Origin: an uncultured delta proteobacterium
GTDB taxonomy: Bacteria > Desulfobacterota > Desulfobacteria > Desulfobacterales > UBA2156
Reading direction: 5' to 3'
Assembly: GCA_963736855.1 (NCBI GenBank)
Contig: CAVTQK010000001.1
Span: 1-17,857, forward strand
Length of the DNA stretch: 17,857 nt
Shown here: positions 3,745-17,809 of the stretch, piece by piece
How the letters are laid out: the number at the start of each line of letters is the position of its first letter
How positions within the stretch are numbered: position 1 is the first letter of the stretch
Translations under genes and position numbers: made by a program
Notes under the pieces: model-generated
What the model saw: the letters and a program-made list of their open reading frames with translations, nothing else
Database searches by the model: none
What the model was told of the DNA's origin: nothing

Positions 3745-5334
3745 ATGGCAGATATTTTTATTCACATCGGTGAAATGCTGGCCCGGAACGGCCGGATGTA
3801 TCCGGACGAGATGGCCCTGGTGGAACGGGATCCCGGGGAAAACGGCGGTTGAGATCACCTGGAAGGAGTTTGACCGGAAGGCTGACCGTATGGCCAATTT
3901 TCTTCGGGAAAGAGGCATCGGAAAAGGGGACAAGGTCATGCACCTGATGCACAACTCGATCGACTGGCTGGTCGCCTACTTCGGCATTGTCCGCACCGGC
4001 GCCTGGGTGGTCCCGCTCAACTTTCGGTTTACCAGCGAAGACATCCAATACTGCATCGACGTGGCCGAACCCCGGATAGTCCTGTTTCGGTGAGGAATTT
4101 ACCGAAAGAATAGATCCGATCAGGGATGGGCTTTCTACGGTGGAGACCTTTCTCTGCGCCGGTGAACATATCCCCGGCCTATGCCGAATCCTTCTCCCGA
4201 AGTCCTTGCGGAATTCTCCGGATAGACCCTTTCCCCGTGGATATAGCGACCGGATGACCCCTGCGGACTTTATTTTACTTCCGGCACGACCGGCCAACCG
4301 AAGCCGATTCTCCTGACCCACAAGAACATGGCCAATGCCTGCTATCACTGAAAAGATGCACCACGGCCAGACACAAAGACGACAGTTTCATTCTCATCCC
4401 GCCCCTCTACCACACCGGCGCCAAGATGCACTGGTTCGGGAGTCTGATTGTCGGCGGACCGGCGGTAATCCTGAAAGGGTTCTCGCCCCAGTGGATCCTC
4501 GAGGCCGTGAGCGAAGAAAAAGGCACCATCGTCTGGCTCCTGGTTCCCTGGGCCCAGGACCTGCTGGTCAAACTGGACAGCGGGGAACTGAAACTGGAAG
4601 ACTACACCTCTCCCCGTGGCGTCTCATGCACATCGGGGCCATGCCCATTCCGCCCTCTCTTATCCGGCACTGGAGACGAATATTTCCCCGAGATGGCCTA
4701 CGACACCACCTATGGTCTGAGTGAGTGCACCGGGCCCAATTGCGTCCATCTCGGGCTTGGAAAACACCCATAAGGTGGGGGCCATCGGGAAGCCCGGTTT
4801 CAACTGGGAAGACCCGGATCGTCGATGAGCAGGGAAAAATGTTCCCAGGGGGAACCGGGGGAACTGCCCGTCCGGGGGACGGGGTGATGCGGGAGTACTA
4901 CAAGAATCCCGAGGCAACTGCCAAGGCCTTGAAGGAAGGATGGCTCTACAGCGGAGATATCGTTAGAGCAGGATGAAGACGGCTTCATCTATATCGTGGA
5001 CCGGAAAAAGGATGTCATCATAACCGGCGGCGAGAATGTCTTTCCCGTGGAGGTGGAGAATTTTTTCCACACCCACCCGGCCGTTAAGGATGTGGCGGCT
5101 ATCGGATATCCGGATGAGCGGTTGGGGGAAATCGTCGCCGTGACCATCGATCTGAAACCGGATAAGGACCTGACCGAAGACGAAGCCCTTAAGTTCTCCG
5201 AAACGTTGCCGCGTTACAAGCGGCCCCGGAAGATATTTTTCGGTCCGGTCCCCAGAAGCCCTACCGGAAAGATCGAGAAACCGAAGCTGAGAAAGAAATA
5301 CTTCGGCCGGGAAGAGGCGGTTAATCCTTTCTAA
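3745..5334 (+). CDS. AMP-forming acyl-CoA synthetase / class I adenylate-forming ligase; many apparent frameshifts
   Basis: AAGGAG RBS, ATG at 3745 (MADIFIHIGEMLARNGRMYPD). Motifs GAWVVPLNFR, P-loop YFTSGTTGQPK (about 4270-4302), PPLYHTG, TYGLSE, GWLYSGD, DRKKDVIITGGENVFPVEVE, PRSPTGKIEK. Stop TAA ends at 5334. Confidence 0.9.
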
Positions 5335-5539: not shown

Positions 5540-6716
5540 TTATGACTGCCTGACCGTCGATGATCCCGGAGGGAAGGTAAAGATCAGCGGAAGGGTCAAC
5601 AAGGGCAGCAATGAAACGCCTATCAGGACACTGTGGATAGAGTAAAGGTCTGCCAATTTGCCGACTATCGGTGATACGGCGCCGCCTAATCCAAAGGCAA
5701 ATCCCATCATCAGGCTGGCCACCATGGACCTGCCCTTGGGCGCCAGAATTTGGGCCATGGCGACGCCCAGGGGCATGGTGGCCAATACCATGGCGCCGGC
5801 CATAATGGCTCCGATATAGACCCAACCGCCCTGGAGCCTTAAAAATAAAAGAAGCACAGGGGCCATAAGGGCATGAGTGAAGATGAAAACCGGTTTGAAC
5901 CCTATACGGTCGGATATATGTCCGGCGATCAGACCGCTTATCGTTCCGGACACGGTAAACAGGGAAAAAATGCCACCGGCCGACAAATCGAAAAGCCTTT
6001 TTCCACGTAGAGGACGGGCATGAAGGTCAAAAAGGATTGCCCGATAATCGCCCTCAAAACCATGACCACCCAGATGCAGGCAACGGTTTTCCAAACGCTT
6101 CCCAGGCTCTCTTTGACAGCCCCCAAAAAACCCAACCGGCGTAACCCCTCACTTTGCGGAACCGGCACAACCCGATATAAGTACCAGGCCACCAGAATTC
6201 CGAAAGCCATGGTGAAAGGCAGGACCTTCAGACCGAATCGGCCGGCATACCAGGTGATGAATAATGGACCGAGTCCGAAGGCCAGGGTCCCCCCGGTATT
6301 AAATACGGACATGGCAAATCCGGTTTTATTCCCGGAGTAGACCGGGACCAACCCGGTTACCGAGGGATGAAACATAGAGGAACCTATGGATCCTAAGGCC
6401 AACAACCGTCAGCAGCGTCCAGAATCCGGTGGTGATACCGGAAAGGGGAATAAAGACGACGGGCATGAGTACTCCCAATAGCATAAAATGGCGGGTGGCA
6501 TAGCGGTCGGCCAGGTATCCCACCGAAGGCTGGATGATGAAGGCCAACAAGACGGATGATCCCTGAGATGATTCCAACCTGAACCAGGGATAATCCCATC
6601 TTTTGGACAAAGAGGGGAAACAGGGGGCTGGTGAAGGAGCTATAAAAATCACCTGTAAAATGAACCAGGGTTAGGGCAAAAAGTATTTTTATGTTGGCTT
6701 TGGTTGTTTCAGTCAT
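5540..6716 (-). CDS. MFS transporter (Fsr/fosmidomycin-resistance-like); frameshifts at about 6553, 6400 and 5990
   Basis: N-terminus ALTLVHFTGDFYSSF, motif A QPSVGYLADR, GIGSSMFHP, AMSVFNTGGTLAFGLGP, second motif A GHISDRIGFK, C-terminal GKLADLYS. Many hydrophobic segments. Confidence 0.88.
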
Positions 6717-6723
6717 ATTTTTT

Positions 6724-7224
6724 CTAATTAGTCGTCCATCCGGTCTTCTTCAGATTCGCATTTTTCTTGGGAACGAGCCCACTCGCGGTTCCCACCATCA
6801 CCTTTTCCCCATCCTGGTTCTCGCACCAGACATCCAGCATCAATCTGACCCTTTCACCCTCGACTGCCTTCTCCCGGACTGTGCCCTTGACGGTCAGCAG
6901 GTCATCCGGCCAGGCTGACCGGATAATAGCCAGGGAAAGGGTGCCGCCAAGATAGCCGGGGCCGAAGAATTTAACCAACAGCTCCCCGAAATACTCCATG
7001 ATCTGGCTGGCAAAGACCAGGGGCTGATCGACCCCCCATTTTTGGGCTATGGTGTAGTCATTATGCCAATTCCTGATTCGCGGCCACTGGCTCCGGTACA
7101 GGCGCATCTTGTCCAGGGTTACCTTTTTGATGATAGGTTCCAGTTGATAGCCGACTTCGATATCCCGGCCGGCGGTGATTTTCATCGGCTTGAAGGCCGT
7201 GGGGTCGGTCTGAATGGTATCCAT
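6724..7224 (-). CDS. MaoC-like hotdog-fold protein (R-specific enoyl-CoA hydratase family), 166 aa
   Basis: DIEVGYQLEP, NWHNDYTIAQKWG...PLV, and AWPDDLLTVKGTVREK...LDVWCENQDGEKVMVGTA are typical of MaoC-type subunits. Confidence 0.8.
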   Translation of the reverse strand: MDTIQTDPTAFKPMKITAGRDIEVGYQLEPIIKKVTLDKMRLYRSQWPRIRNWHNDYTIAQKWGVDQPLVFASQIMEYFGELLVKFFGPGYLGGTLSLAIIRSAWPDDLLTVKGTVREKAVEGERVRLMLDVWCENQDGEKVMVGTASGLVPKKNANLKKTGWTTN

Positions 7225-7292
7225 CTTTTTACCTTCATTGAGGATTCTTTCTCATCCAGTCATTGCGGCGAGTTGACCGTCTACGCCTCACC

Positions 7293-7784
7293 TTAAGGGC
7301 TCGGGACCGAGCATGAAAAAGGGTTTTCGACTTTAATCTCTTTTCGCACTAAAGGAAAGGCCTGGGACATTCTCATCCGGACGATTTCCCGGCCGTCTTC
7401 GTCTATGACCAGGAATTCAAAGGTAATATGATCTCTGCCCCGCTTGTGTATTTTATCTGTAATCCGGCCGGTTATCCTGATCCGTTTTCCGACCTTAAGG
7501 GCGTTGATGAATTCGAACTCCTGCTTGGCCCAGAGCCCGTAGCCCTTGGGAAGGGCAAAATAATTCCAAAGCATGATATCGGTGTCATAGGCCAGAAAGG
7601 TCGGTGAGATAATGCGGCCGCCGAAGGGTGAATTTTCCAGATACCAGGGATTATAATCATCATTGGCCCAGGCATGCCTTTCGGCCATCTCCTCGGTAAT
7701 AACCATCTCCACCGGCTCCATTTCATGTCCGATTTCAGCATTGAGTAAATCTTGAGTTCCCGTCTGTCGCCGTTGCTCTTCCAT
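7293..7784 (-). CDS. MaoC N-terminal-type (FAS1-like/HadA-like) hotdog dehydratase subunit, 163 aa
   Basis: Start taken at MEEQ (7784). Motifs IGHEMEPVEMVITEE...ANDDYNPWY...SPFGGRIISPTFL, QEFEFINALKVG and KRGRDHITFE...DEDGREI. Confidence 0.8.
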   Translation of the reverse strand: MEEQRRQTGTQDLLNAEIGHEMEPVEMVITEEMAERHAWANDDYNPWYLENSPFGGRIISPTFLAYDTDIMLWNYFALPKGYGLWAKQEFEFINALKVGKRIRITGRITDKIHKRGRDHITFEFLVIDEDGREIVRMRMSQAFPLVRKEIKVENPFSCSVPSP

Positions 7785-7969
7785 TTTCTTCCCCTGCCGT
7801 CGCTTTTCCGGTCCTCTTAGTCCGGTTTTTCCAAAGAATTTATTCATGAGGAAGTTTCGATCCCTGGAGACCCCCCTACCAGGCTGCGGCTTCCGGGCTT
7901 CCAGGGTCCCAGACAATAATCCGAAAGAAGCTATTTCCCATTGCAGTGAACAACCATCTCTCTGTCCCC

Positions 7970-8762
7970 TTAACGGCCCTTGTACTCTCGGCCGTGCGTT
8001 TCTCCAGGAAGGCCTGTAACCCCTCCCGGGCATCCTCACTGGTCATCACCCGCACCAGGAGAGCATCCATCTCCTCTGAATAACGGTCCGCTTCCAGGAG
8101 TGATGCCTTCCTGATTCCCTCCTTCAAAGCACGCACGGCCAGTGGGGCATTGGCAACCAGTTCTTTGGCCAGGGCCATGGTTTCCGCTTCCAGACGGGCT
8201 TGGGGCAGCACTTGGTTGACCAGGCCCATTTCCCGGGCACGGGCGGCGTTAAGGGGCGCCCCCCTTAACAGGATCTCTGCCGCAGCGAACGGTCCGACCA
8301 CCTGCACCAGCTTACGGATGAGCGGAAATGGGACCATCAATCCGCGCTTAACGATTGGCATACCGATATGCGCGGTATCCGCCATGAGACGGAAATCACA
8401 GTGCAGAGCTAACTCACAGCCGCCAGCCAAGGCATCCCCGTTGATCATGGCTATCACCGGATTGGGATACACCTCTACGGCCTGCATAGCCTTGTGAATC
8501 AGCTCATGGTCAAGGGGGAAGCAGGACGGCGTCCCTTAACGTCCTCGAGTATGCTGTTTAGATCCATGCCGGATGAAAATGACCGTTCACCCGCACCGCG
8601 CAATACCACCACGCGAGTACCCTGATCATCGGCAAGGCCTTCCAGCGTCCCTTGGAGACTCCTTAGAAGCTCGTAGGTCAGGGCATTATGTTTGTGCGGC
8701 CGGTTTATGGTCAAGACGGTAATATAATTGCGGGTCGAAACATGCAAATCCTTTTCAGCCAT
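7970..8762 (-). CDS. Crotonase-superfamily enzyme (enoyl-CoA hydratase/isomerase-like); frameshifts at about 8510 and 7987
   Basis: LTINRPHKHNALT, FSSGMDL (first oxyanion-hole segment), PVIAMINGDALAGGCEL, GLVNQV, APLAVRALK, SEDAREGLQAFLEKR. A canonical C-terminus (EYKGR then TAA at 7972-7970) lies in another frame. Confidence 0.88.
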
Positions 8763-8828: not shown

Positions 8829-10281
8829 TTAATAGGATTTATTGATATACTCGTAATAGGTTGTCAAAGCCTTGATAGCCGCAACAGCTCTCTCCGGGCT
8901 GGGGAAAATGGGAATTCCATTGGCGATTAATTTTTTTCTGCATTGGATCGGAAGGGGCGCCATAGGTGTATCCGACTATAGGTTTGCCGCAGGCATTGCG
9001 TATCCGAATAAGAGCTTCGGTTTGGGTTTTGATCATCGTCAGGTTTTGCCGGGTGGATTGTTCTTCTGATAAGCCCATGGCCTCCATTAACAGCGTCGTC
9101 CTGCGCCCTTGAGCCATAAAATACATGAGCAGCAGGTCGGCGTTTTCATCTTCCAAAAGAGTCTGAGGGATGATCGAGAAAAGGTCCGAGTGGTTCCGGG
9201 AAAAGGTCATGTCCACGGGATTGTTGATGCTGGCCGTAGGAGGGAAAAAAGGCTTCAGTTTCTCCCTGGTCGCCTCTGACAGACTCGACAGTTCCAGGCC
9301 GGCCCGTCCTGCGGCGTCGGCTGCATTGGCTCCAGGCCCGCCCGAATTGGTTTGGATGACCAGACGATGTCCTTTCGGCGCCGGCAGGCTTCCCAAGGCC
9401 CAGCAGAAATCAAACAGCTCCGTAAGAGATCCCGCCCTGATCACCCCGCTTTGTTTGAACAGGCCGCTGTATAGATTATCCGGCCCGGACAGGGCGCCGG
9501 TGTGCGAGAACCCGGCCCGTTTGCCCGTTTCCGTGCCGCCGACATAAAGAGCGACAATGGGTTTTTGGGGGACAATGGACCTGGCCGTTTCAATGAAGGC
9601 CCTGCCTCGCCGGATGCCTTCGATATAAAGGGCGATCACTTTGGTCTTTTTACAAGCACCAAAATAATTCAGGCAATCGACGATGTCGATGTTGGCTTCA
9701 TTGCCGACGCTGAAGGCCGAGCTGAATCCCAGCCCCATGGTGCCCAGATAATCAAACATCTGGGTGACAAAACTACCGCTTTGAGAGGCCATGCCGATAA
9801 ATCCCGGTTGGGCGTCATAGGTAAAGGGCGTCGGGTTGAGCTTGAGATGGGGGTTGACAACGCCGATGCAGTTCGGTCCAATAAACCGGATGCCGTAATG
9901 ATCGGCGGTTCTTTTCAGCTCTTCTTCCAATCCGGCGCCTTCCTCGCCGACTTCTCTAAACCCGCCGGAAACGACCACCGCACTCTTGATGCCTTTTTGG
10001 CCGCATTCATCCATGGCCTGACAGACAATGCGGGTGGGCAGGACGATTATGGCCAGATCAGGAATTTCGGGAAGATCCATCACGCTTTGATAGGCCCGGT
10101 ATCCCTGGACTTCCGTTTCCTTGGGATGAATGGGATAAACCAGTCCTTCATAACCCAGTTCCTTCATGGACATGAACTGGATGGTTCCCATGGTCGTGTA
10201 ATTGTTCGACGCCCCGAAAAAAGCGATGCTTTTTGGATTGGCGATAGAAAATAGCGGACTCTCTTCAATAAAATTTATCAT
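8829..10281 (-). CDS. ADP-forming acyl-CoA synthetase (acetate--CoA ligase family) alpha-type subunit; C-terminal frameshift in the T7 run at 8931-8937
   Basis: NPKSIAFFGASN, PDLAIIVLP, SGGFRE, GPNCIG, SQSGS, SVGNEA, LYIEG, phospho-His motif SHTGAL, TNSGGPG, NNPVDM. Removing one base restores GIPIFPSPERAVAAI...SY-stop. The start codon is uncertain (10281 chosen). Confidence 0.88.
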
Positions 10282-10325
10282 GGTACAATTCTCTGAAACA
10301 TCTACCTCCCTCAAGAAATAGGCCA

Positions 10326-10721
10326 CTACCCTTTTCTCTGAACCAATTCAATGCTCACACCATCCGGGGCTTCGATAAAAGCGATACGCGCGGTGGGGCC
10401 AAAATCCATAGGATCGACCGTAAACTTGACCCCGTTCTTCTTCAGGTCCCCGCAAAACCCGTCGAAATCCCCATCCACCCGGAACCCGAAATGATCCGTG
10501 CCCCACTCTATTCCGTTTTTCTCTTTAACCTGTTCTCCCGGCCTCTGGCCGCGAATAATAATGGTGGCCCCTTTGAAGGAGACAACGATTGAAGGCGCCC
10601 CGCGGACTTCAGAGCGGTTGACCACCCTTCCTCCCAGTTTTTCCGCGTACCAGGCGGCCGTTGATTCAGGGTCTTGACTGACAAGATGAACGTGGTCAAA
10701 TACCAGGTTTGCATCATTCAT
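10326..10721 (-). CDS. VOC (glyoxalase/bleomycin resistance/dioxygenase) superfamily protein, 131 aa
   Basis: FDHVHLVSQD...WYAEKLGG, GTDHFGFRV and RIAFIEAPDGVSIELVQ give a His/His/Glu metal-ligand pattern. Confidence 0.9.
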   Translation of the reverse strand: MNDANLVFDHVHLVSQDPESTAAWYAEKLGGRVVNRSEVRGAPSIVVSFKGATIIIRGQRPGEQVKEKNGIEWGTDHFGFRVDGDFDGFCGDLKKNGVKFTVDPMDFGPTARIAFIEAPDGVSIELVQRKG

Positions 10722-10780: not shown

Positions 10781-11715
10781 TCAACGGTCCTCTTTAAAAA
10801 ATCTGTAAAGGGCTTCCGAACTTTTAGCGGCCTGAGTCATGAACTCGGACATGATGCGGGAAATCTCTTCTATTTTATGGATCAGACCCACTCCTTGTCC
10901 GGCCGGCATAATCGTATTCTCCCCGGTGCCTTCCTTATGGCCGTAATCAACCACCTGTAACATGTTCTTTCTTCTCTTTCCCCTGATCCGTGAGACTTCT
11001 CGCCGCCGGGTTATCAAGAATCCGTAAAGACATTCTCCCTTCTCCCAACCAGAGAGTTCCGGTGTCCGGGGCCTGGAGAAGGGCTTCCTTGTAGTATTCC
11101 GGCACTGGACATTCCCTGGTACGCCAGGAAACGAGTGCCTACCTCGATGCCTTCGGCCCCAAGGGCCAGGGCAGCCAGAAATCCGCGGAAATCGCAGATG
11201 CCCCCGGCTGCCACCACCGGTATATTCAGGGCATCGCATAGTTGAGGAACCAGACAGAGGGTGGTCAGTTGACTTCTGCCCCCATGCCCGCCGGCTTCAA
11301 AACCCATGGCAATCACCCCGTCCACTCCGGCCTCCTGAGCCTTTAAACCCATGGCCGTGGTGGAAACCTTGTGCAGGACGATGAGTCCTGCGTCCTTGGC
11401 CCGATCCATGATCTTATCGGGGCTACCCCCCGAGGTTGAAATGACCGGAACCCTCATTTCGATGGCCGTCTCCAGAGACTCCAAGGCATTAGGGCGATGG
11501 AGGGGGATGTTGATCCCGAAGGGCCTGTCGGTTAAATCCCTGGCCTTTTCGATTTCTTTCCGGAGTTCAGGGACCGTCAAGGTTGACGTAGCGATCTGAC
11601 CCAATCCCCCACTTTCGGATACGGCGGCGGCCATGGGTCCCAGGGTAATTCGCCGCATGGGTCCTAGGATCAAAGGGATTTTTATTCCCAATAATTGCGT
11701 AAGTCTTTTTTCCAT
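10781..11715 (-). CDS. FMN TIM-barrel flavoenzyme of the nitronate monooxygenase / FabK enoyl reductase family; frameshifts in about 10950-11125
   Basis: RLTQLLGIKIPLILGPM, AAAVSESGGLG, TDRPFGINI, GVDGVIAMGFEAGGH, IPVVAAGGICD, ALALGAEGIEVGTRFLA, and C-terminal PAGQGVGLIHKI in another frame. Confidence 0.88.
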
Positions 11716-11853: not shown

Positions 11854-12664
11854 TCAGGCTACGCGCCCACCCGGATAAGGCGGTCCGCCGGCGTAAACCT
11901 CTTCTACCAGGATTAATCCCGATCGTTTCGATTCCTCCCAGCGCCCCTTGATCTGATAGGAGATGGCTTCAGAGGTGAGGACATTGGCGGCTACCAAGGC
12001 CTGGGCTGCAGGAGTGGGAAACTCCGCTTTTTTCCAGCAGGCCAGTTTCTTTTGACCTGCGGGCTGCAACGACAGGGACGGGATCACTTTCGGATATCCG
12101 TCGGGTCCCAGCCAGGCCAGGACTTTGACTGCGGCCACCCTGGCGAATTCAAGTTTTACGGCCAGGGGGATGATCACGCCATTTCCTGACAATGTTTTTC
12201 GGTCACGGCCTTGGCTGATGGCCGCCAACCGGGCCAGCCAATAATCCTTGAGGACCTGGAGTTTGGAAATGGCAAAGGTCCCTTCTATGGAGAGGAGGCG
12301 GATGAGCCCGGCATTGCGGACGCCGGTGTAGGCGTTGTAGCGCAAAAGGGAGCTGTTCTTTTGTTGGTCCACATAGGGTCCGCTAGTCTGAAACTCGATA
12401 AAGTCTACCTTTGAGGATCCATCCCCGCAGCTCGGGTGTAACCACCAGGATACCGACGCGACAGTCTTCCTGAAGATTTTTGATGCTCTTGCGCAACAAG
12501 AAATTTCCAAAAAAAAGGGTGTCCTCCTGATCTTCGGCCGGACGCATTGAAATGCAGGGCACAACGTTGGGGATGTTATCAGCCGAGCGGGTGGCCAGAA
12601 ACTTGGGGGTCATCTCTCCGCGTAAAGCGGCCAATAGATCAGGTTGCTGTTCGAGAAGGGACAT
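11854..12664 (-). CDS. Pyridoxamine 5'-phosphate oxidase-like (FMN split-barrel) protein with two tandem domains, about 269 aa; frameshift at about 12406
   Basis: Domain 1: PKFLATRSADNIPNVVPCIS...FFGNFLLRKSIKNLQEDCRVGILVV...GWILKGDF. Domain 2: VKVLAWLGPDGYPKVIP...SYQIKGRW. Removing one base (AAA GGT [A] GAC) joins the two ORFs. Confidence 0.8.
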
Positions 12665-12714
12665 GGCAGGTCTTTCTATTCACTTTTCTTCGCTATTGTC
12701 AGCAGATAATTTGA

Positions 12715-12743
12715 ATCACCGAAATTGTCAATATTTCGGTGAT
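12715..12743. promoter_or_regulatory. Perfect 11-bp inverted repeat (operator or RNA stem-loop)
   Basis: ATCACCGAAAT-tgtcaat-ATTTCGGTGAT, about 50 nt upstream of the PNPOx-like start codon. No U-tract on either side. Confidence 0.55.
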
Positions 12744-12747
12744 GACT

Positions 12748-12846
12748 GGAATCCAGAAGTCAGAATTCAGGATCCAGGGATAAACTAGAAACCTGGTAAC
12801 GATCTACTCTCATTCTGAATTCTGGCTACTAGGCTACCTGAATTCT
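12748..12846. repeat. Inverted arrays of degenerate heptamer repeats forming a long imperfect hairpin
   Basis: Left arm GGAATCC AGAAGTC AGAATTC AGGATCC; right arm CATTCTG AATTCTG GCTACTA GGCTACCTG AATTCT. CAGAATTCAG (12761-12770) pairs perfectly with CTGAATTCTG (12815-12824). Confidence 0.55.
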
Positions 12847-12873
12847 AAAATTTTAAATCTCTTTGGTTAATTT

Positions 12874-13791
12874 TTATCCGGTCGCCCCTGACCAAACGGC
12901 AGTTGGCACCGGTTCCAGCGCCACCCGGTGAAGGGTTTCCATCATGGTCCGGGTTAACAGGGGCGTTGTTTCCAACAGATACGGCAAATCAAGCCGATGG
13001 TATTTGGGTTTGCCTAAATTGGTGTAGGCCAGCAAATCCCAACGCTGCACCGTAGGCAAGGCCTCCTGGATAAAGTCCCCGATCAATCGAATATTTTCCG
13101 GATCATCGGTATATCCGGGGATAACGGGAGTTCGAATCCACATCGATTTGCCGGCAGCCGCCAGGCGGCGCGCATTCTCCAGGATCGTTGCGTTAGAGAG
13201 GCCTGTGGTCCGTTTGTGTCTTTCCTCGTTCATCAGTTTAAGATCGAATAATATCAAGTCCACCCAGGATAATATCCTTTCATAGCGCTCCCAGGAGACG
13301 GCACCGCTGGTATCCAAGGCTACATGCACCCCGGCTTCCTTACAGCGAGGCAGGATTTGGCTGAGAAAATTCGTCTGCATCATCGGCTCGCCGCCGCTAA
13401 AAGTGATGCCTCCTCCCGAGGTCTGGTAAAAGACCTGATCTTTTAATAGTTCGCTAACCAACTCCTCGGGGGTAAGGGAGCGTCCGATAATTTCTATGGC
13501 CCCCGTCGGACAAGCATCCCGGCATTTTCCGCAAAGTGTACACCGTCCCCGGTCGATTTGCATCCCTTCCGGCCTAAGGTTTAATGCCTTTTCCGGACAA
13601 ACCTTAAGACAATCCTTCGCGCCAATGCATCGAGTGTCATACCACATCAGGTCGGGCTCAGGACGCAGCCCTTCCGGATTATGGCACCAGGGGCAGCGCA
13701 GGGGGCAGCCTTTAAGAAAGACCGTGGTGCGGATGCCGGGTCCGTCTTCGGTGCTGAATTGCTGGATGTTGAAGATCAGGCCGGTGTCCAT
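12874..13791 (-). CDS. Glycyl-radical enzyme activating enzyme (radical SAM) with ferredoxin-like insert, 305 aa
   Basis: GLIFNIQQFSTEDGPGIRTTVFLKGCPLRCPWCHNPEG (CxxxCxxC), insert CIGAKDCLKVCP...CTLCGKCRDACP, GGITFSGGEP, ALDTSG, LFDLK and IRTPVIPG. Starts 37 nt after the GRE stop. Confidence 0.95.
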   Translation of the reverse strand: MDTGLIFNIQQFSTEDGPGIRTTVFLKGCPLRCPWCHNPEGLRPEPDLMWYDTRCIGAKDCLKVCPEKALNLRPEGMQIDRGRCTLCGKCRDACPTGAIEIIGRSLTPEELVSELLKDQVFYQTSGGGITFSGGEPMMQTNFLSQILPRCKEAGVHVALDTSGAVSWERYERILSWVDLILFDLKLMNEERHKRTTGLSNATILENARRLAAAGKSMWIRTPVIPGYTDDPENIRLIGDFIQEALPTVQRWDLLAYTNLGKPKYHRLDLPYLLETTPLLTRTMMETLHRVALEPVPTAVWSGATG

Positions 13792-13828
13792 GGTCAGGTC
13801 GGCATTAAGATGGTTTTTTGGCTCATGC

Positions 13829-16230
13829 TCAAACCGCGTGGGACTCCCGGGCAATGATCTCGTCCTGGATTTCCTTCCCCAGACCGACAAAATAGGCGTT
13901 GTAGCCGGTGACCCGCACCAAGAGGTTGTGGTATTCGTCAGGGAACTTTTGGGCCTCCCTGAGGGTGTCGGCGTCGATCACATTGACCTGCAGGCAAGTC
14001 CCCCCCACTTTTCCATAGGCCCGTAACAGGCCTTTGAGCTTCTGGCGTTGTTCGGGATTCCGCAGGAGGTTCGGGCTGAAGCTCATGGTATGACTGGCGC
14101 CGTTGGGGGCGGTCTCCAATCCCAGTTTGCCGACACTCTTGATGATCGAGGTCGGTCCTCGGCGGTCGGCCCCATTGACCGGGCAGACCGCGTTGGAAAG
14201 GAACTGCCCCCGACGGCGCCCGTCGGGTGTCGCCGCCGTGGTCGGCGCATAAGCGATCCAGTAGTTCCAGGATAGATAACCGCCTCGATAGCGCTTTCCG
14301 GTGGATGAGATATGGGTAAAGGCCTGTTCGGTCCAAAAGCGGCTGATCTCGCGGGCGATCTCATCCGCATAACCGTCATCGTTGCCATACTTGGGTGCTT
14401 TGGTCAGCAAGGTCCGGCGTAAACTCTCCTGCCCTTCAAAGTTGGCCCGGATGGCCTCAACCAGGTTTCCCATTTCGATCTGGTGATCTTCATAAACCAG
14501 CTTTTTTACAGCAGCCAGGCTGTCGGCCACGGTGGCCAAGGCCACTCCTTCCACCGTCAAGAAATTATAACGGGCCCCGCCCGCGTTGCAGTCTTTGCCG
14601 TTTTGCAGGCAGCCGTCTACCAGGGCGCTCAGGTAAGGGACCGGTTCCCACCGGGCCCGGCCCCCATCGGCCAGGTTGTTGGCAGCGATGAGCTGTTCCA
14701 GGATAGTTTTGAGCTGTTGTTTAAAGGCTTCCATAAATTGAGGGAAGTCCTTAAAATTTTTCGGGTCACCGGTGCGCGGTCCGATCTGTCGGCCCGTGGC
14801 CAAATCACGGCCATCGTTTAAAACCAATTCGACGGCTTTGGCCAGATTCAGATTGACATCCACGGTGCCGGAGCGGTCGTCGCCGATCAGGGTGTTTTCC
14901 AGGCAGCCCACCGGTGCGTAATCCCAGAGCCTTTCTTCCGGAAGGCCCTGCCAACGCAAACCGGCCATGGAATTTTCGTCAAAGTTGATCAGGAAGGGAG
15001 AGCCCTGGGCCTTGGCCAGCATCTCCACCATGTGATCGAGTAACCGGTCGGAGGTCCCGGCGTGGATGCGGATGTTGGGCTTGGGTTCCAGAAGGTTCAT
15101 CTCTTCGATGACCTCCAGCATCAGATAGGTCAGATCATTGGCGGCGTCATGGCCCTGGGCATCCATTCCGGCCAGGGTTATAAGCTGGCCGAAAGAAGAA
15201 TTAATACCCTGATTGGTACCGGTCCAGCCCTGATAATCATAGACATAATTATGTTTGATCCACAAGCATTGCAGCCATTCGCGAGCGGACTCTTCGGTAA
15301 GGCGGCCCGCCTCCCGATCCGCCTGGAAGAATGGGTAAAGGTACTGATCCACCCGTCCCGGCGAAAGGCCGGGCCCCGGATAGCTTTCGGCGGCCATGGC
15401 CAGCATGTGGGTGAACCAAAGGGCTTGCAGGGCTTCGGAAAAGGTTTCGGGGGGCTGCCAGGGGACCTTTCGGCAAATGCGGGCGATTTCCTGCAACTCG
15501 TCCCGGCGCAGCTTATCGGTTTCGTTAGCGGCCAATTGGTCAGCCCGGAGGGCATAGCGGTCGGCCAGATCGCGCGTGGCCTCCGCCGAAATCATGATCG
15601 CCCGGGCCATATTCTTTTGTTCGACCGTACTCCCAGGATCATTGAACAGAACCTGGGCCTCATCCCAGATTCCTTTCCAACCGATTTTGAGGACTTTGGG
15701 GTAGTTGGGCACCAGATGACCGGGAACAGCGGCACAGTTTCCCACCCCGACGCTGTTGAGTCCATTCCAGACCTTGAGGAAGGTTTGCTCTTCCCGGTCC
15801 CGGCGTCGGGCTTCGTCTTTCTTGAGGCAGCGGGAGAGGGCCGTGCTGAAATGGGAACCGACGATCAGCTCTCCTTCCAATATTTCGACAGGCAGGTAGG
15901 AGCGAATCACCTGGCGGAAGAAAAGGGCCTGACGGATGACCAGGGGTTCGTTCCAAAAGCCGGCCGGCAACTCCACCGGCCGGGCTGAAGCTGACAGATA
16001 ACTGCGAAATCCTTTATGAAACAGGGCCATTTCAGGAACGTTGGTCCAGTTCCAGATGGAATACATCGTGTCCCAGGGGGTGCCGGTGGTATAGGCGCGC
16101 ACTTCGTTGGTGTATTCTCGTTCGTAAAGGACCAGAATTCCCGGCGTAAGCTTTCCACACGAGGTGAAAGGGTTGAAGACGCCGACCATAAATTCTGGGG
16201 GGAGACGAAGCAGCTTGATGCGGTGGTCAT
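13829..16230 (-). CDS. Glycyl radical enzyme (PFL2/eliminase-like, not classical PFL), about 800 aa; one frameshift at about 16127
   Basis: GGAGGT RBS then ATG at 16230 (MTTASS...LSPRVESLRREFWSF). Adding one T in the TTT run joins to YEREYTNEVRAYTTGTPWD. Motifs GHLVPNY, EALQALWF, SPGRVDQYL, Cys loop YAPVGCLEN (Cys codon 14903-14905), APKYGND, ATPDGR, and Gly loop LLVRVTGYNAYF (Gly codon 13904-13906). Confidence 0.95.
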
Positions 16231-16575: not shown

Positions 16576-17809
16576 ATGAAGCGATATCTGACTGAGGAAG
16601 AAATAAAGCGGGCCAAGGCGGATAAAAATATCAGGGAAGGAATCATCGCTGAAATTGAAGCGAAACTGGAAATCGGAAAGCCGCGGCCGGTGACGGTTGA
16701 CGGACCCGACCCGGAAACCGGTTATAAGATGGGCGCCTACCGGATGACGCGCCGGGTGGCGACCGAAGACGCCATACGACAATTCTGCGACGCCATCGGC
16801 GATTTCAATCCGCTGTATCGCGACCGGGATTATGTAAAGAACACCCGTTACGGCGGCATCATCGCCCCTCCTCAATTTCTGGGGGCCATTGCCCCCTATT
16901 CCGGGATCGCCAAGGCGGCGGAAGATCTGGATTTTCATGTCGCCCGGGTTGACGCCGGAGTTAACGTCGAATGGTTCAAGATCATCCGGGAGGACGACCG
17001 GTTTACGGTATTTGAGTATCCTACGTCGGTGAAGGACATCACCCGGGAGAATACGGCCTTACAATTTTTAGTCAATGGAAACAGGGTGTTTAAAAATCAG
17101 CGGGACGAAGTGGTGGCCGTGGTGGATATTGCCGGGATTGCCGTCGTTCTCAAGGAGCCTTCATCCGGTAAGGTTCAGGTTGGGAAACCGCCGCAATTTC
17201 GCCGCTTTTCCATTCGCGAAGTGGAAGACTGGTATGAGCGGGCGGAAAGAGAAGAAATCCGGGGCGGCAATCCGCTCTTCTGGGAAGATGTCCAGGGAAG
17301 GAGACGAGCTTCCGCCGACGCACCACCTTTTTACTCTGGCGGAAGCCATCGCCTATTCCGCCGCCATGGGCAAAAGCGTCAGTTGGCGAACCCATATGGC
17401 CCACAACCGGGACACCTGGAAGAATATGATCGATCCGGAGAGCGGCCTGCCCGATTTCACGCACTGGCATCTGACCGACGCCGCCGCTCAACGGCTGGGA
17501 ATGCCGCGGGCCAATTGTCTGGGCATGCAAATGCGGGCCTGGCTGGGACGCATGATTTCGAACTGGATGGGAGACGACGGGTTCATCAAGAAGATGGGGG
17601 ACCAGCTTCGCGGGGTGTTGTATCGGGATTCGCTGGCGCTGTGCAAGGGCAAGGTGGTCAAAAAATACGTCCAGGACGGGGAACACCTGGTCGATCTGGC
17701 GGTTACCGTCGAGGATCACGACGGCAACTTCATGATACCGAACGGATCGGCCACAGTCGTCTTGCCGTCGAGGAAAATGGGGGTCGGGGAAAGGGTTTAT
17801 CCTGTCTGA
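16576..17809 (+). CDS. Fused double-hotdog (MaoC N-type plus MaoC) dehydratase/hydratase, about 410 aa; frameshift at about 17297
   Basis: N-domain ATEDAIRQFCDAIGDFNPLYRD...TRYGGIIAPP. Linker LFWEDVQEGDELP is restored by removing one G from CAGGGAA. C-domain PDFTHWH...AAQRLGMP...NWMGDDG...CKGKVVKKY...GSATVVLPSR. Confidence 0.85.

What the first reader, a model, noticed from the sequence alone, without database searches (positions are those of the whole stretch)
11854..16230. Candidate undescribed glycyl-radical system: atypical GRE, activase and tandem PNPOx-like flavoprotein
Seen: three co-oriented genes encoding a GRE with intact Gly and Cys loops, its activase, and a two-domain split-barrel protein. 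Known: characterised GREs (PFL, glycerol/propanediol dehydratase, CutC, HypD, IslA/HpsG, arylacetate decarboxylases, BssA, NrdD) come with partners such as microcompartment shells, aldehyde/alcohol dehydrogenases or small Fe-S subunits. None of those is adjacent here, and I know of no characterised GRE working with a PNPOx-like protein. Inference: a new GRE reaction, with the split-barrel protein either supplying electrons to the activase or oxidising/reducing the GRE product, possibly feeding the flanking acyl-CoA enzymes.
Basis: partly seen in the sequence, partly recalled or inferred. Interest (0 to 1): 0.85.

Follow-up and report, generated by a model that had tools for sequence, protein, structure and literature searches.

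The report
Orphan glycyl-radical enzyme with split-barrel partner
This is a real three-gene cassette of sediment anaerobes: an oxygen-sensitive radical enzyme of unknown substrate, its activator, and a two-lobed flavin-type protein that appears to belong to the enzyme itself rather than to the activator, a kind of partner not described for any studied member of this enzyme superfamily.

Summary
Observation confirmed. Three minus-strand genes: a glycyl radical enzyme (GRE; one frameshift), an intact activase and a tandem split-barrel protein (one frameshift). The GRE is below every NCBIfam equivalog cut-off and sits in its own clade (support 1.0). It keeps CxE and the glycerol-dehydratase His164 equivalent but has a distinct SWNYW pocket. 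The partner is dedicated: 43 of 44 GRE-positive genomes among 351 hold it, and all 43 carriers hold the GRE. It tracks the GRE more closely than the activase (partial correlation 0.74 vs 0.14). It also stays beside the GRE in 9 genomes where no activase sits between them; one genome shows the reverse. An electron donor for the activase is therefore the weaker reading. The flanking acyl-CoA genes are not conserved. Best reading (0.45): a radical 1,2-eliminase on a bulky diol- or ether-type substrate, with a one-site flavin-type partner as subunit or product-processing enzyme. Substrate, flavin binding and the complex are untested. This scan found the same trio before on other DNA (8 notes listed). 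A 2026 GRE review names no such partner.

The parts
13829..16230 (-). Glycyl radical enzyme, about 800 aa, PFL2/eliminase-like fold; one base missing near 16129 (probable sequencing indel)
   Evidence: model of homologue P0001 pLDDT 90.3, TM about 0.83 to HypD and CutC at 27-30% identity
14897..14905 (-). CxE Cys-loop motif (C443, L444, E445 in P0001 numbering); C443 and E445 invariant in 109 of 109 aligned homologues
13904..13906 (-). Radical-bearing Gly (G776) in R[VI]TGYNAY, invariant in 109 of 109
15716..15718 (-). His172, aligned to glycerol dehydratase His164 (proposed general acid), invariant in 109 of 109
   Evidence: role of His164 from PMC13450708 section 26
14258..14272 (-). Clade-specific SWNYW segment at the position of glycerol dehydratase P641-N645; S654-Y657 invariant in 109 of 109, W658 in 108 of 109
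12874..13791 (-). GRE activase (radical SAM CxxxCxxC plus ferredoxin-like insert); the first auxiliary motif reads CxxAxxCxxxC, one Cys short
11854..12664 (-). Tandem split-barrel protein (FMN-bp/HupZ-like fold), about 269 aa; one extra base near 12407; domain 1 has PN, KSxxN and RYNAY, domain 2 has SYQxKG and EVY..PPxPG
12715..12846 (.). Short inverted repeats in the widened activase/split-barrel spacer; local, not part of the conserved unit
   Evidence: spacer about 30 nt in L010-L012

Best explanation
A self-contained catabolic cassette. The activase installs the radical on G776 and C443 becomes the thiyl radical (established GRE chemistry, inferred here from intact motifs). C443 abstracts H from a carbinol carbon, E445 deprotonates that OH and H172 protonates a neighbouring leaving group. 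This is a radical 1,2-elimination or ring-opening of a vicinal diol, hydroxy-ether or amino-alcohol type substrate bulkier or more lipophilic than glycerol, and gives an aldehyde or ketone (inferred). The tandem split barrel is the GRE's own partner: a fused pseudo-dimer with a single flavin-type site, which docks on the GRE as a subunit or takes the reactive product and oxidises or reduces it (inferred). Products enter general aldehyde and acyl-CoA metabolism, which is why no downstream gene is fixed. Shown: genes, motifs, clade, co-inheritance, fold. Not shown: substrate, flavin binding, physical contact, expression.
For: CxE is kept by all described C-O, C-N and C-S eliminases and isomerases, and His164 plus Glu435 are the proposed acid/base pair of glycerol dehydratase (PMC13450708 sections 26 and 30). 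Both are invariant in 109 of 109 homologues. Best structural and profile matches are eliminases; HPAD, BSS and PFL score 296, 347 and 173 bits vs 610 for glycerol dehydratase. By alignment the glycerol dehydratase residues H281, Y339, D447 and Y640 face P/A, S/A, V and L, and W655/Y657/W658 are new, which suggests a larger, more apolar pocket. Partner co-occurrence 43 of 44 and 43 of 43. Over 79 complete loci, identity correlations were GRE-partner 0.93, GRE-activase 0.87, activase-partner 0.84, with partials 0.74, 0.47, 0.14; shared well-supported splits were 27, 23, 17. The partner directly follows the GRE with no activase between them in 9 genomes; a strong activase match lies on another contig in 8 of the 9. 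In four genomes with a clade II GRE and clade II partner the lone activase is closer to clade I activases (59-61% vs 47-51%). The single-domain partner in L113 carries the motifs of both halves, as expected if the tandem form is a fused dimer keeping one site. Recurrent but non-fixed neighbours among the 874 candidate ORFs clustered: acyl-CoA dehydrogenases 18 loci, GntR/FCD regulator 17, aldehyde ferredoxin oxidoreductase 8, Fe-ADH 3.
Against: No substrate is identified and no transporter or downstream enzyme is conserved. CxE is also present in HPAD and IAD decarboxylases, so it does not prove elimination. The pocket mapping rests on sequence alignments with gaps around 281-288 and 339-347, not on coordinates. 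Gene order is mixed: activase and partner are adjacent in 71 of 108 loci (59 contiguous trios, 12 with an insertion after the GRE), and one genome keeps them together away from the GRE (L137). Strong conflicts between trees are few for all pairs (2, 1 and 0), and kin share history, so the correlations overstate. The phosphate-binding Lys position is variable in the clade II partners I aligned, and the motif pattern matched 70 of 93 partners; flavin binding may not be general.
Confidence: 0.45

Rival explanations
1. Same GRE chemistry, but the split barrel is a dedicated low-potential flavin electron carrier that reduces the activase [4Fe-4S] cluster, as flavodoxin does for PFL activase.
For: Closest folds include FMN-binding proteins (Swol_0183 3in6 Z 16.9, rmsd 2.6, 127 aligned; Desulfovibrio FMN-bp 1axj Z 14.9, rmsd 1.8, 113 aligned). 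Activase and partner are adjacent in 71 of 108 loci and moved together in L137. PFL-AE uses flavodoxin. Most clade I activases lack one Cys of the first auxiliary motif (Ala in 61 of 97 motifs parsed).
Against: The partner stays with the GRE in 9 genomes without an adjacent activase, and there the activase type can differ from the GRE's subclade. Partial correlation with the activase is 0.14. An invariant [RK]YNxY lid (93 of 93) suggests specific ligand or partner recognition rather than generic electron transfer.
Confidence: 0.17
2. The GRE and partner form a redox-coupled radical enzyme: the flavin accepts or donates an electron to a substrate radical, so the net reaction is an oxidation or reductive cleavage and not a redox-neutral elimination.
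For: Near-obligate GRE-partner co-inheritance; a second invariant acid, E561 (108 of 109); a clade-specific N-terminal ~90 residues that other GREs do not match could form a docking site; the roles of redox cofactors in known small subunits are described as enigmatic.
Against: No PFL-like GRE with net redox chemistry is described in the review sections read. The GRE active site is buried, and flavin binding is unproven.
Confidence: 0.13
3. The GRE is a new decarboxylase or C-C lyase for an aryl- or hydroxy-carboxylate, and the partner is a cofactor-free structural or gating subunit.
For: Aromatic-rich pocket, two conserved Glu (E445, E561) and invariant R453; HPAD uses two Glu; the clade II regulator has an FCD-type domain, which in my recall often senses small carboxylates; a LIV-type ABC transporter surrounds the L113 cassette.
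Against: Much lower similarity to HPAD and IAD (258 and 287 bits vs cut-offs 1150 and 1100) than to eliminases; His164 equivalent kept; no Fe-S small subunit gene recurs. I could not map E561 onto HPAD Glu637.
Confidence: 0.15
4. The GRE is a divergent enzyme for an already known reaction (diol, hydroxyproline, choline, sulfonate or anhydrosugar cleavage, or fumarate addition).
For: Automated annotations call homologues formate C-acetyltransferase or HypD; fold similarity is equally high to several eliminases. Archaeal PFL2-like GREs have been proposed as Ass/Bss (PMC8163825, passages); I did not test whether those belong to this clade.
Against: All equivalog scores are under half of their cut-offs; separate clade with support 1.0; substrate-determining residues of GD, CutC and the C-S lyases are not kept; single Cys with CxE, unlike PFL.
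Confidence: 0.1

Closest known systems
B12-independent glycerol dehydratase (C. butyricum, PDB 1R8W) and propanediol dehydratase (5I2G, 9RCO)
   Same: Same barrel fold (TM 0.81-0.82), single-Cys CxE loop, His164 equivalent, ferredoxin-insert activase.
   Different: 28-29% identity; H281, S282, Y339, D447 and Y640 not kept; SWNYW segment; different N-terminal ~90 residues; dedicated split-barrel partner; no diol reductase or microcompartment genes among the recurring neighbours.
HypD, HpyG/HpzG, HplG, YbiW/PflD, CutC, IslA/IseG/HpsG (GRE eliminases and isomerases)
   Same: CxE motif and fold (TM 0.75-0.83).
   Different: Scores 357-477 bits vs cut-offs 1000-1109; His where CutC has Asp; no Arg/Gln/Arg sulfonate clamp at the inferred positions; no pathway genes of these systems among recurring neighbours.
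Multi-subunit GREs (HPAD, BSS, MASS) and the limonenylsuccinate synthase operon with LssP
   Same: A GRE inherited with an accessory protein; the lss operon also encodes an expressed PNPOx-like protein of unknown function (PMC12583861, passages).
   Different: Known small subunits are HiPIP- or rubredoxin-like iron proteins; this partner is a 269-aa tandem split barrel without a Cys motif; the GRE is not a succinate synthase (BSS 347 bits vs 610 for GD).
FMN-binding split barrels: Desulfovibrio FMN-bp (1AXJ), Swol_0183 (3IN6), HupZ (7KPZ), FDOR-B F420 reductases, PhdC
   Same: Domain 1 fold (Z 12.8-16.9 for the first four named); a Lys at the inferred position of FMN-bp Lys53, which binds the FMN phosphate (PMC4699859, passage).
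   Different: Two fused domains with the motifs divided between them; invariant RYNAY lid; 15-22% identity; ligand unknown (FMN, F420, heme or none).

Membership tests
Glycyl radical enzyme superfamily (PFL-like) | PF02901 + PF01228, Cys loop and C-terminal Gly loop | tested here: met
Glycyl radical enzyme superfamily (PFL-like) | Cognate radical SAM activase with CxxxCxxC | tested here: met
   TIGR02494 351 vs 174; adjacent gene
Glycyl radical enzyme superfamily (PFL-like) | Glycyl radical EPR signal after activation | not testable with these tools
   needs experiment
GRE 1,2-eliminases / isomerases (class) | [quoted passage not shown] | tested here: met
   C443 and E445 in 109 of 109; definition
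GRE 1,2-eliminases / isomerases (class) | C-O, C-N or C-S cleavage of a substrate | not testable with these tools
   substrate unknown
Glycerol/propanediol dehydratase | His164 | tested here: met
   H172 aligned
Glycerol/propanediol dehydratase | His281, Ser282, Tyr339, Asp447, Tyr640 (set recalled; positions read from the 1R8W alignment) | tested here: not met
   P/A, G, S/A, V, L
HypD (NF043068) | Equivalog cut-off 1100; activase cut-off 425 | tested here: not met
   477.5 and 335.7 bits
CutC (TIGR04394) | Cut-off 1050; Asp at the His164 position | tested here: not met
   399.9 bits; a CutC representative (P0315) has Asp there and lies outside the clade
C-S lyases (IslA/IseG/HpsG, HpfG) | Cut-off 1000; two Arg and one Gln binding the sulfonate | tested here: not met
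   449 and 406 bits; residues; His and Ala at the inferred Gln and Arg positions (position mapping inferred, not aligned residue by residue)
Arylacetate decarboxylases (HPAD, IAD, PAD, AAD) | Equivalog cut-offs (HPAD 1150, IAD 1100) | tested here: not met
   258 and 287 bits; no PAD or AAD model appeared in the output
Arylacetate decarboxylases (HPAD, IAD, PAD, AAD) | Second catalytic Glu (HPAD Glu637) | tested here: inconclusive
   E561 is conserved but no residue-level alignment to 2Y8N was obtained
X-succinate synthases (BSS/MASS/LSS) | Small Fe-S subunit genes and close similarity to BssA | tested here: not met
   BSS 347 and MasD 381 bits vs 610 for GD; no recurring small subunit, though ORFs under 110 aa were not clustered
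Pyruvate formate-lyase (TIGR01255) | Adjacent Cys-Cys; cut-off 994 | tested here: not met
   GCLE; 109 bits
FMN-binding split barrel (PNPOx-like) fold | Split beta-barrel fold | tested here: met
   (domain 1 matched; domain 2 supported by alignment to domain 1, and by secondary structure, not searched alone)
FMN-binding split barrel (PNPOx-like) fold | Flavin phosphate-binding helix motif K[ST]xxN | tested here: inconclusive
   domain 1: 70 of 93 by a relaxed pattern; domain 2: 0 of 93; the equivalence to FMN-bp Lys53 is inferred
Pyridoxine/pyridoxamine 5'-phosphate oxidase (PdxH) | PdxH family match | tested here: not met
   no NCBIfam hit; true PNPOx structures rank low (Z 9.8-9.9)

The most novel reading that the evidence does not exclude
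The split barrel is a flavin-bearing subunit of the GRE, making this the first flavin-coupled glycyl radical enzyme. It would cleave a lipid-type C-O bond (for example a glycerol ether or long-chain diol) and pass electrons or the reactive product through the flavin, giving sediment bacteria and archaea a general anaerobic entry into lipid necromass. This fits the enlarged apolar pocket and the sporadic SCP2, AOR, ADH, acyl-CoA dehydrogenase and FadR-like neighbours, but no test here addresses the substrate.
Probability: 0.12. Interest if true: 0.92.

Novelty: new variant of a known kind. Interest (0 to 1): 0.68.

Why it matters
GREs carry out hard anaerobic chemistry, and each new clade has tended to reveal a new reaction. 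The 2026 review states that whole clades lack validation, that no archaeal PFL-like GRE has an established function, and that accessory subunits are known only as iron proteins (PMC13450708, sections 15 and 33). This clade is highly conserved (at least 43% identity over 79 loci) and occurs in 44 of 351 sampled genomes of this phylum. It is also found in Chloroflexota, Actinomycetota, Planctomycetota, Acidobacteriota, Myxococcales, Riflebacteria and Bathyarchaeota records, where homologues are often auto-labelled PFL or HypD. Three genes suffice for reconstitution, so the question is directly testable, and the partner would be a new kind of GRE accessory protein.

Tried and rejected
Link to the window's flanking genes (NMO, glyoxalase, CoA ligase, enoyl-CoA hydratase, MaoC): rejected. 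Acyl-CoA dehydrogenase found inside the cassette in Dehalococcoidia: its subfamily is in 122 of 351 genomes, 39 of 44 GRE-positive and 83 of 307 GRE-negative (my count; kin not independent), is mostly unlinked and was not found in G000 (best 37%); kept as a weak metabolic hint only. Sphingolipid-type neighbours (S1P-lyase-like and FGGY kinase in L021; DUF6206 and class III aminotransferase in L025; C69 peptidase in 5 loci): too sporadic. Promoter and terminator scan: at chance level. Homologue search of the partner's second piece among longer proteins gave one 348-aa hit and no fusion to a GRE or activase, which is weak evidence. Cluster look-up of 10 proteins showed only MAG-type names, no cultured isolate. 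ESM Atlas returned only unnamed PNPOx-like clusters. Tetranucleotide test of whether contig C1 belongs in G000: inconclusive. Literature: no paper describing this trio in searches; PMC6849830 and PMC3543383 (passages) and bioRxiv 2024.11.13.623527 (term search, 0 hits) were not relevant. Subscription journals and supplements were not searched and could hold an SSN cluster for this clade. The first maximum-likelihood tree did not finish and was replaced by FastTree.


Full report
What is there. The window is the whole 17,857-base contig C1 of genome G000 and many of its genes are in pieces. On the minus strand lie a glycyl radical enzyme (GRE, 16230-13829), its activase (13791-12874) and a split-barrel gene (12664-11854). 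Against intact relatives the GRE lacks one base near 16129 and the split-barrel gene has one extra near 12407; the activase has no gap. An 800-aa homologue is 97% identical (P0001), so the breaks are most simply sequencing errors. It is the only PF02901 match in G000.

The GRE is unassigned. It scores 522 on the broad PFL2-3 model (cut-off 678) and under half of every equivalog cut-off: HypD 477/1100, HpsG 449/1000, CutC 400/1050, IAD 287/1100, HPAD 258/1150, PFL 109/994. A model of P0001 (pLDDT 90.3) matches HypD, propanediol and glycerol dehydratases and CutC about equally, at TM 0.81-0.83 and 27-30% identity. A profile search of 1.84 billion representatives gave three full-length hits at 950-1180 bits matching from the N-terminus and a few partial or degraded ones; other GREs scored at most 689 and matched only from about position 90. 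In a tree of 104 sequences (95 of the 150 representatives, chosen by length and rank, plus 9 of mine) the family is one clade with support 1.0, apart from a CutC representative. It has two subclades about 48% identical to each other.

Active site, by alignment only. C443, E445, H172 and G776 (P0001 numbering) are invariant in 109 of 109 homologues. H172 and E445 align with glycerol dehydratase His164 and Glu435, the proposed acid and base of dehydration; CxE is kept by all described eliminases and isomerases (PMC13450708 sections 26 and 30), but also by HPAD and IAD. Glycerol dehydratase His281, Ser282, Tyr339, Asp447 and Tyr640 (set recalled) face P/A, G, S/A, V and L. The clade has its own near-invariant SWNYW, DRSGTVD and E561. 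I read this as eliminase chemistry in a larger, more apolar pocket; I could not inspect coordinates.

The partner is dedicated. Of the best 80 of 332 loci from one genome per species, 61 show the split barrel near the GRE. Fifteen of the other 19 end within about 4 kb; in the four that do not, and in one truncated case, the gene lies elsewhere in the genome (5 of 5). In 351 genomes of the phylum the GRE was found in 44 and the tandem split barrel in 43, all among the 44; the exception has its GRE 1.4 kb from a contig end. Seven further genomes had only weak single-domain hits and no GRE match. Named loci include Thermodesulfobacteriota/Deltaproteobacteria, Anaerolineae, Dehalococcoidia, Geothermincolia, Planctomycetota, Acidobacteriota, Myxococcales, Riflebacteria and Bathyarchaeota.

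What the partner is. The L009 orthologue folds with pLDDT 92.7 into two barrels. Domain 1 matches Swol_0183 (Z 16.9), HupZ (16.6) and Desulfovibrio FMN-binding protein (14.9), ahead of true PNP oxidases (9.8-9.9). Domain 1 keeps a K[ST]xxN-type helix (70 of 93 by a relaxed pattern) and an [RK]YNxY lid (93 of 93); domain 2 has neither but carries YQxKG and PPxPG-type motifs. A single-domain version in L113 has all of these in one chain. The tandem protein is thus best read as a fused dimer that kept one composite site. Lys53 of FMN-bp binds the FMN phosphate (PMC4699859, passage); equating it with K59 is my inference, HupZ has Gln there and binds heme (PMC9237417, passages), and clade II partners vary. 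'Flavoprotein' is likely, not shown.

Whose partner? Among 108 loci with a complete GRE, 59 are contiguous GRE-activase-partner, 12 have an insertion after the GRE, 8 have insertions in both gaps, 7 are GRE-partner without activase, 16 are cut by contig ends and 6 are broken, single-domain or split. Counting genomes, including those with broken GRE copies, the partner directly follows the GRE in nine (G070, G081, G117, G148, G179, G210, G240, G268, G295), at least three separate places in the tree (G070 and G240 were not in it). In eight a strong activase match lies on another contig. In four of them GRE and partner are clade II while that activase is closer to clade I activases; that it serves this GRE is inferred from the shared Gly loop. 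Against this, one genome keeps activase and partner together away from the GRE (L137), and two keep the partner with neither. Over 79 complete loci the partner's divergence follows the GRE (0.93; partial 0.74) more than the activase (0.84; partial 0.14), with 27 vs 17 shared strong splits but few conflicts for any pair. Shared ancestry inflates all of these numbers. On balance the partner belongs to the GRE. A structural test of binding could not be run.

Neighbours. The window's acyl-CoA genes are local: the NMO-like gene matched none of 80 loci, and most of the downstream block is absent from L009 although the shared DNA is 88-92% identical. Recurring non-core neighbours are acyl-CoA dehydrogenases (18 loci, more than one subfamily), a GntR/FCD regulator upstream of clade II (17), aldehyde ferredoxin oxidoreductase (8), enoyl-CoA hydratase (6), C69 peptidase (5), Fe-ADH, adenosine deaminase and creatininase (3 each). 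An AOR, SCP2 and Fe-ADH block lies downstream in L110 and L112, with AOR and Fe-ADH in L107. These suit an aldehyde or lipophilic product but identify nothing.

Literature. A June 2026 review (PMC13450708; outline, sections 6, 15, 22, 23, 26, 30, 33 and term searches read) has no occurrence of 'FMN' or 'pyridox', lists small subunits only for HPAD, BSS and MASS and says entire clades lack validation. The one precedent found is LssP, a PNPOx-like protein of unknown role in the limonenylsuccinate synthase operon (PMC12583861, passages). Searches found no description of this trio; subscription papers and supplements were not covered. This scan has recorded the same trio in other genomes (eight notes shown); these are AI notes and not independent support.

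Verdict. A real, conserved, uncharacterised GRE clade with a partner type not described for the superfamily: new variant of a known kind, interest 0.68. Most likely a radical 1,2-eliminase with a GRE-linked, one-site flavin-type partner (0.45); electron donor to the activase 0.17; decarboxylase-like 0.15; redox-coupled GRE 0.13; known reaction 0.10.

Noticed in passing
window:1-17857 (G000:C1): The contig may not belong to G000 or may be a recent transfer: the GRE was not found in 11 same-family genomes, the closest copy (94%) is in a genome related only at phylum level, much of the window is 88-92% identical in DNA to L009, and long-ORF cover is 0.54 vs 0.68-0.79 in the large contigs; the tetranucleotide test was inconclusive.
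   Followed up: partly
window:12874-13791: The first auxiliary ferredoxin motif of clade I activases lacks its second Cys (CxxAxxCxxxC; Ala in 61, Cys in 24 of 97 motifs parsed), suggesting an altered or missing auxiliary cluster.
   Followed up: partly
L113:7104-15420: Divergent cassette with a single-domain split barrel inside a LIV-type ABC transporter operon (binding protein upstream, permeases and ATPases downstream); the binding protein's ligand could reveal the substrate.
   Followed up: partly
L091:12304-14775; L096:5176-7535; L123:12650-15091; L062:13180-16008: A second, unrelated PFL2-like GRE without its own adjacent activase lies next to the cassette; in L062 it has a ~150-aa N-terminal extension with no Pfam hit.
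   Followed up: partly
L072:10452-11684 and orthologues in L056, L057, L061, L067, L083, L086, L077, L088, L092: An unassigned acyl-CoA dehydrogenase subfamily (best NCBIfam 256 vs cut-off 640) sits inside or beside the cassette in several lineages and is widespread in the phylum (122 of 351).
   Followed up: yes
L110:13273-17344; L112:1519-5081; L107:4109-8024: AOR and Fe-ADH genes, with an SCP2 gene in L110 and L112, downstream of clade II cassettes.
   Followed up: partly
L021:4663-7672; L025:2474-7672: PLP-dependent (S1P-lyase-like by recall) and FGGY kinase genes divergent from the GRE in L021; C69 peptidase, DUF6206 and class III aminotransferase inside the L025 cassette.
   Followed up: no
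window:868-3681: Frameshifted molybdopterin oxidoreductase catalytic subunit and 4Fe-4S subunit, also present in L009.
   Followed up: no
window:3-809; 3770-5334; 5540-6716; 6724-7741; 7876-8762; 8839-10326; 10326-10721; 10781-11715; 16576-17809: Zn-type quinone reductase, AMP-dependent ligase, MFS transporter, two MaoC-like genes, enoyl-CoA hydratase, ADP-forming CoA ligase alpha, glyoxalase, NMO/FabK-like flavoprotein and a double hot-dog dehydratase, most broken by indels; ordinary acyl-CoA metabolism genes.
   Followed up: partly
window:12715-12846: Nested short inverted repeats in the activase/split-barrel spacer, wider than in most relatives; possibly a small inserted repeat element.
   Followed up: partly
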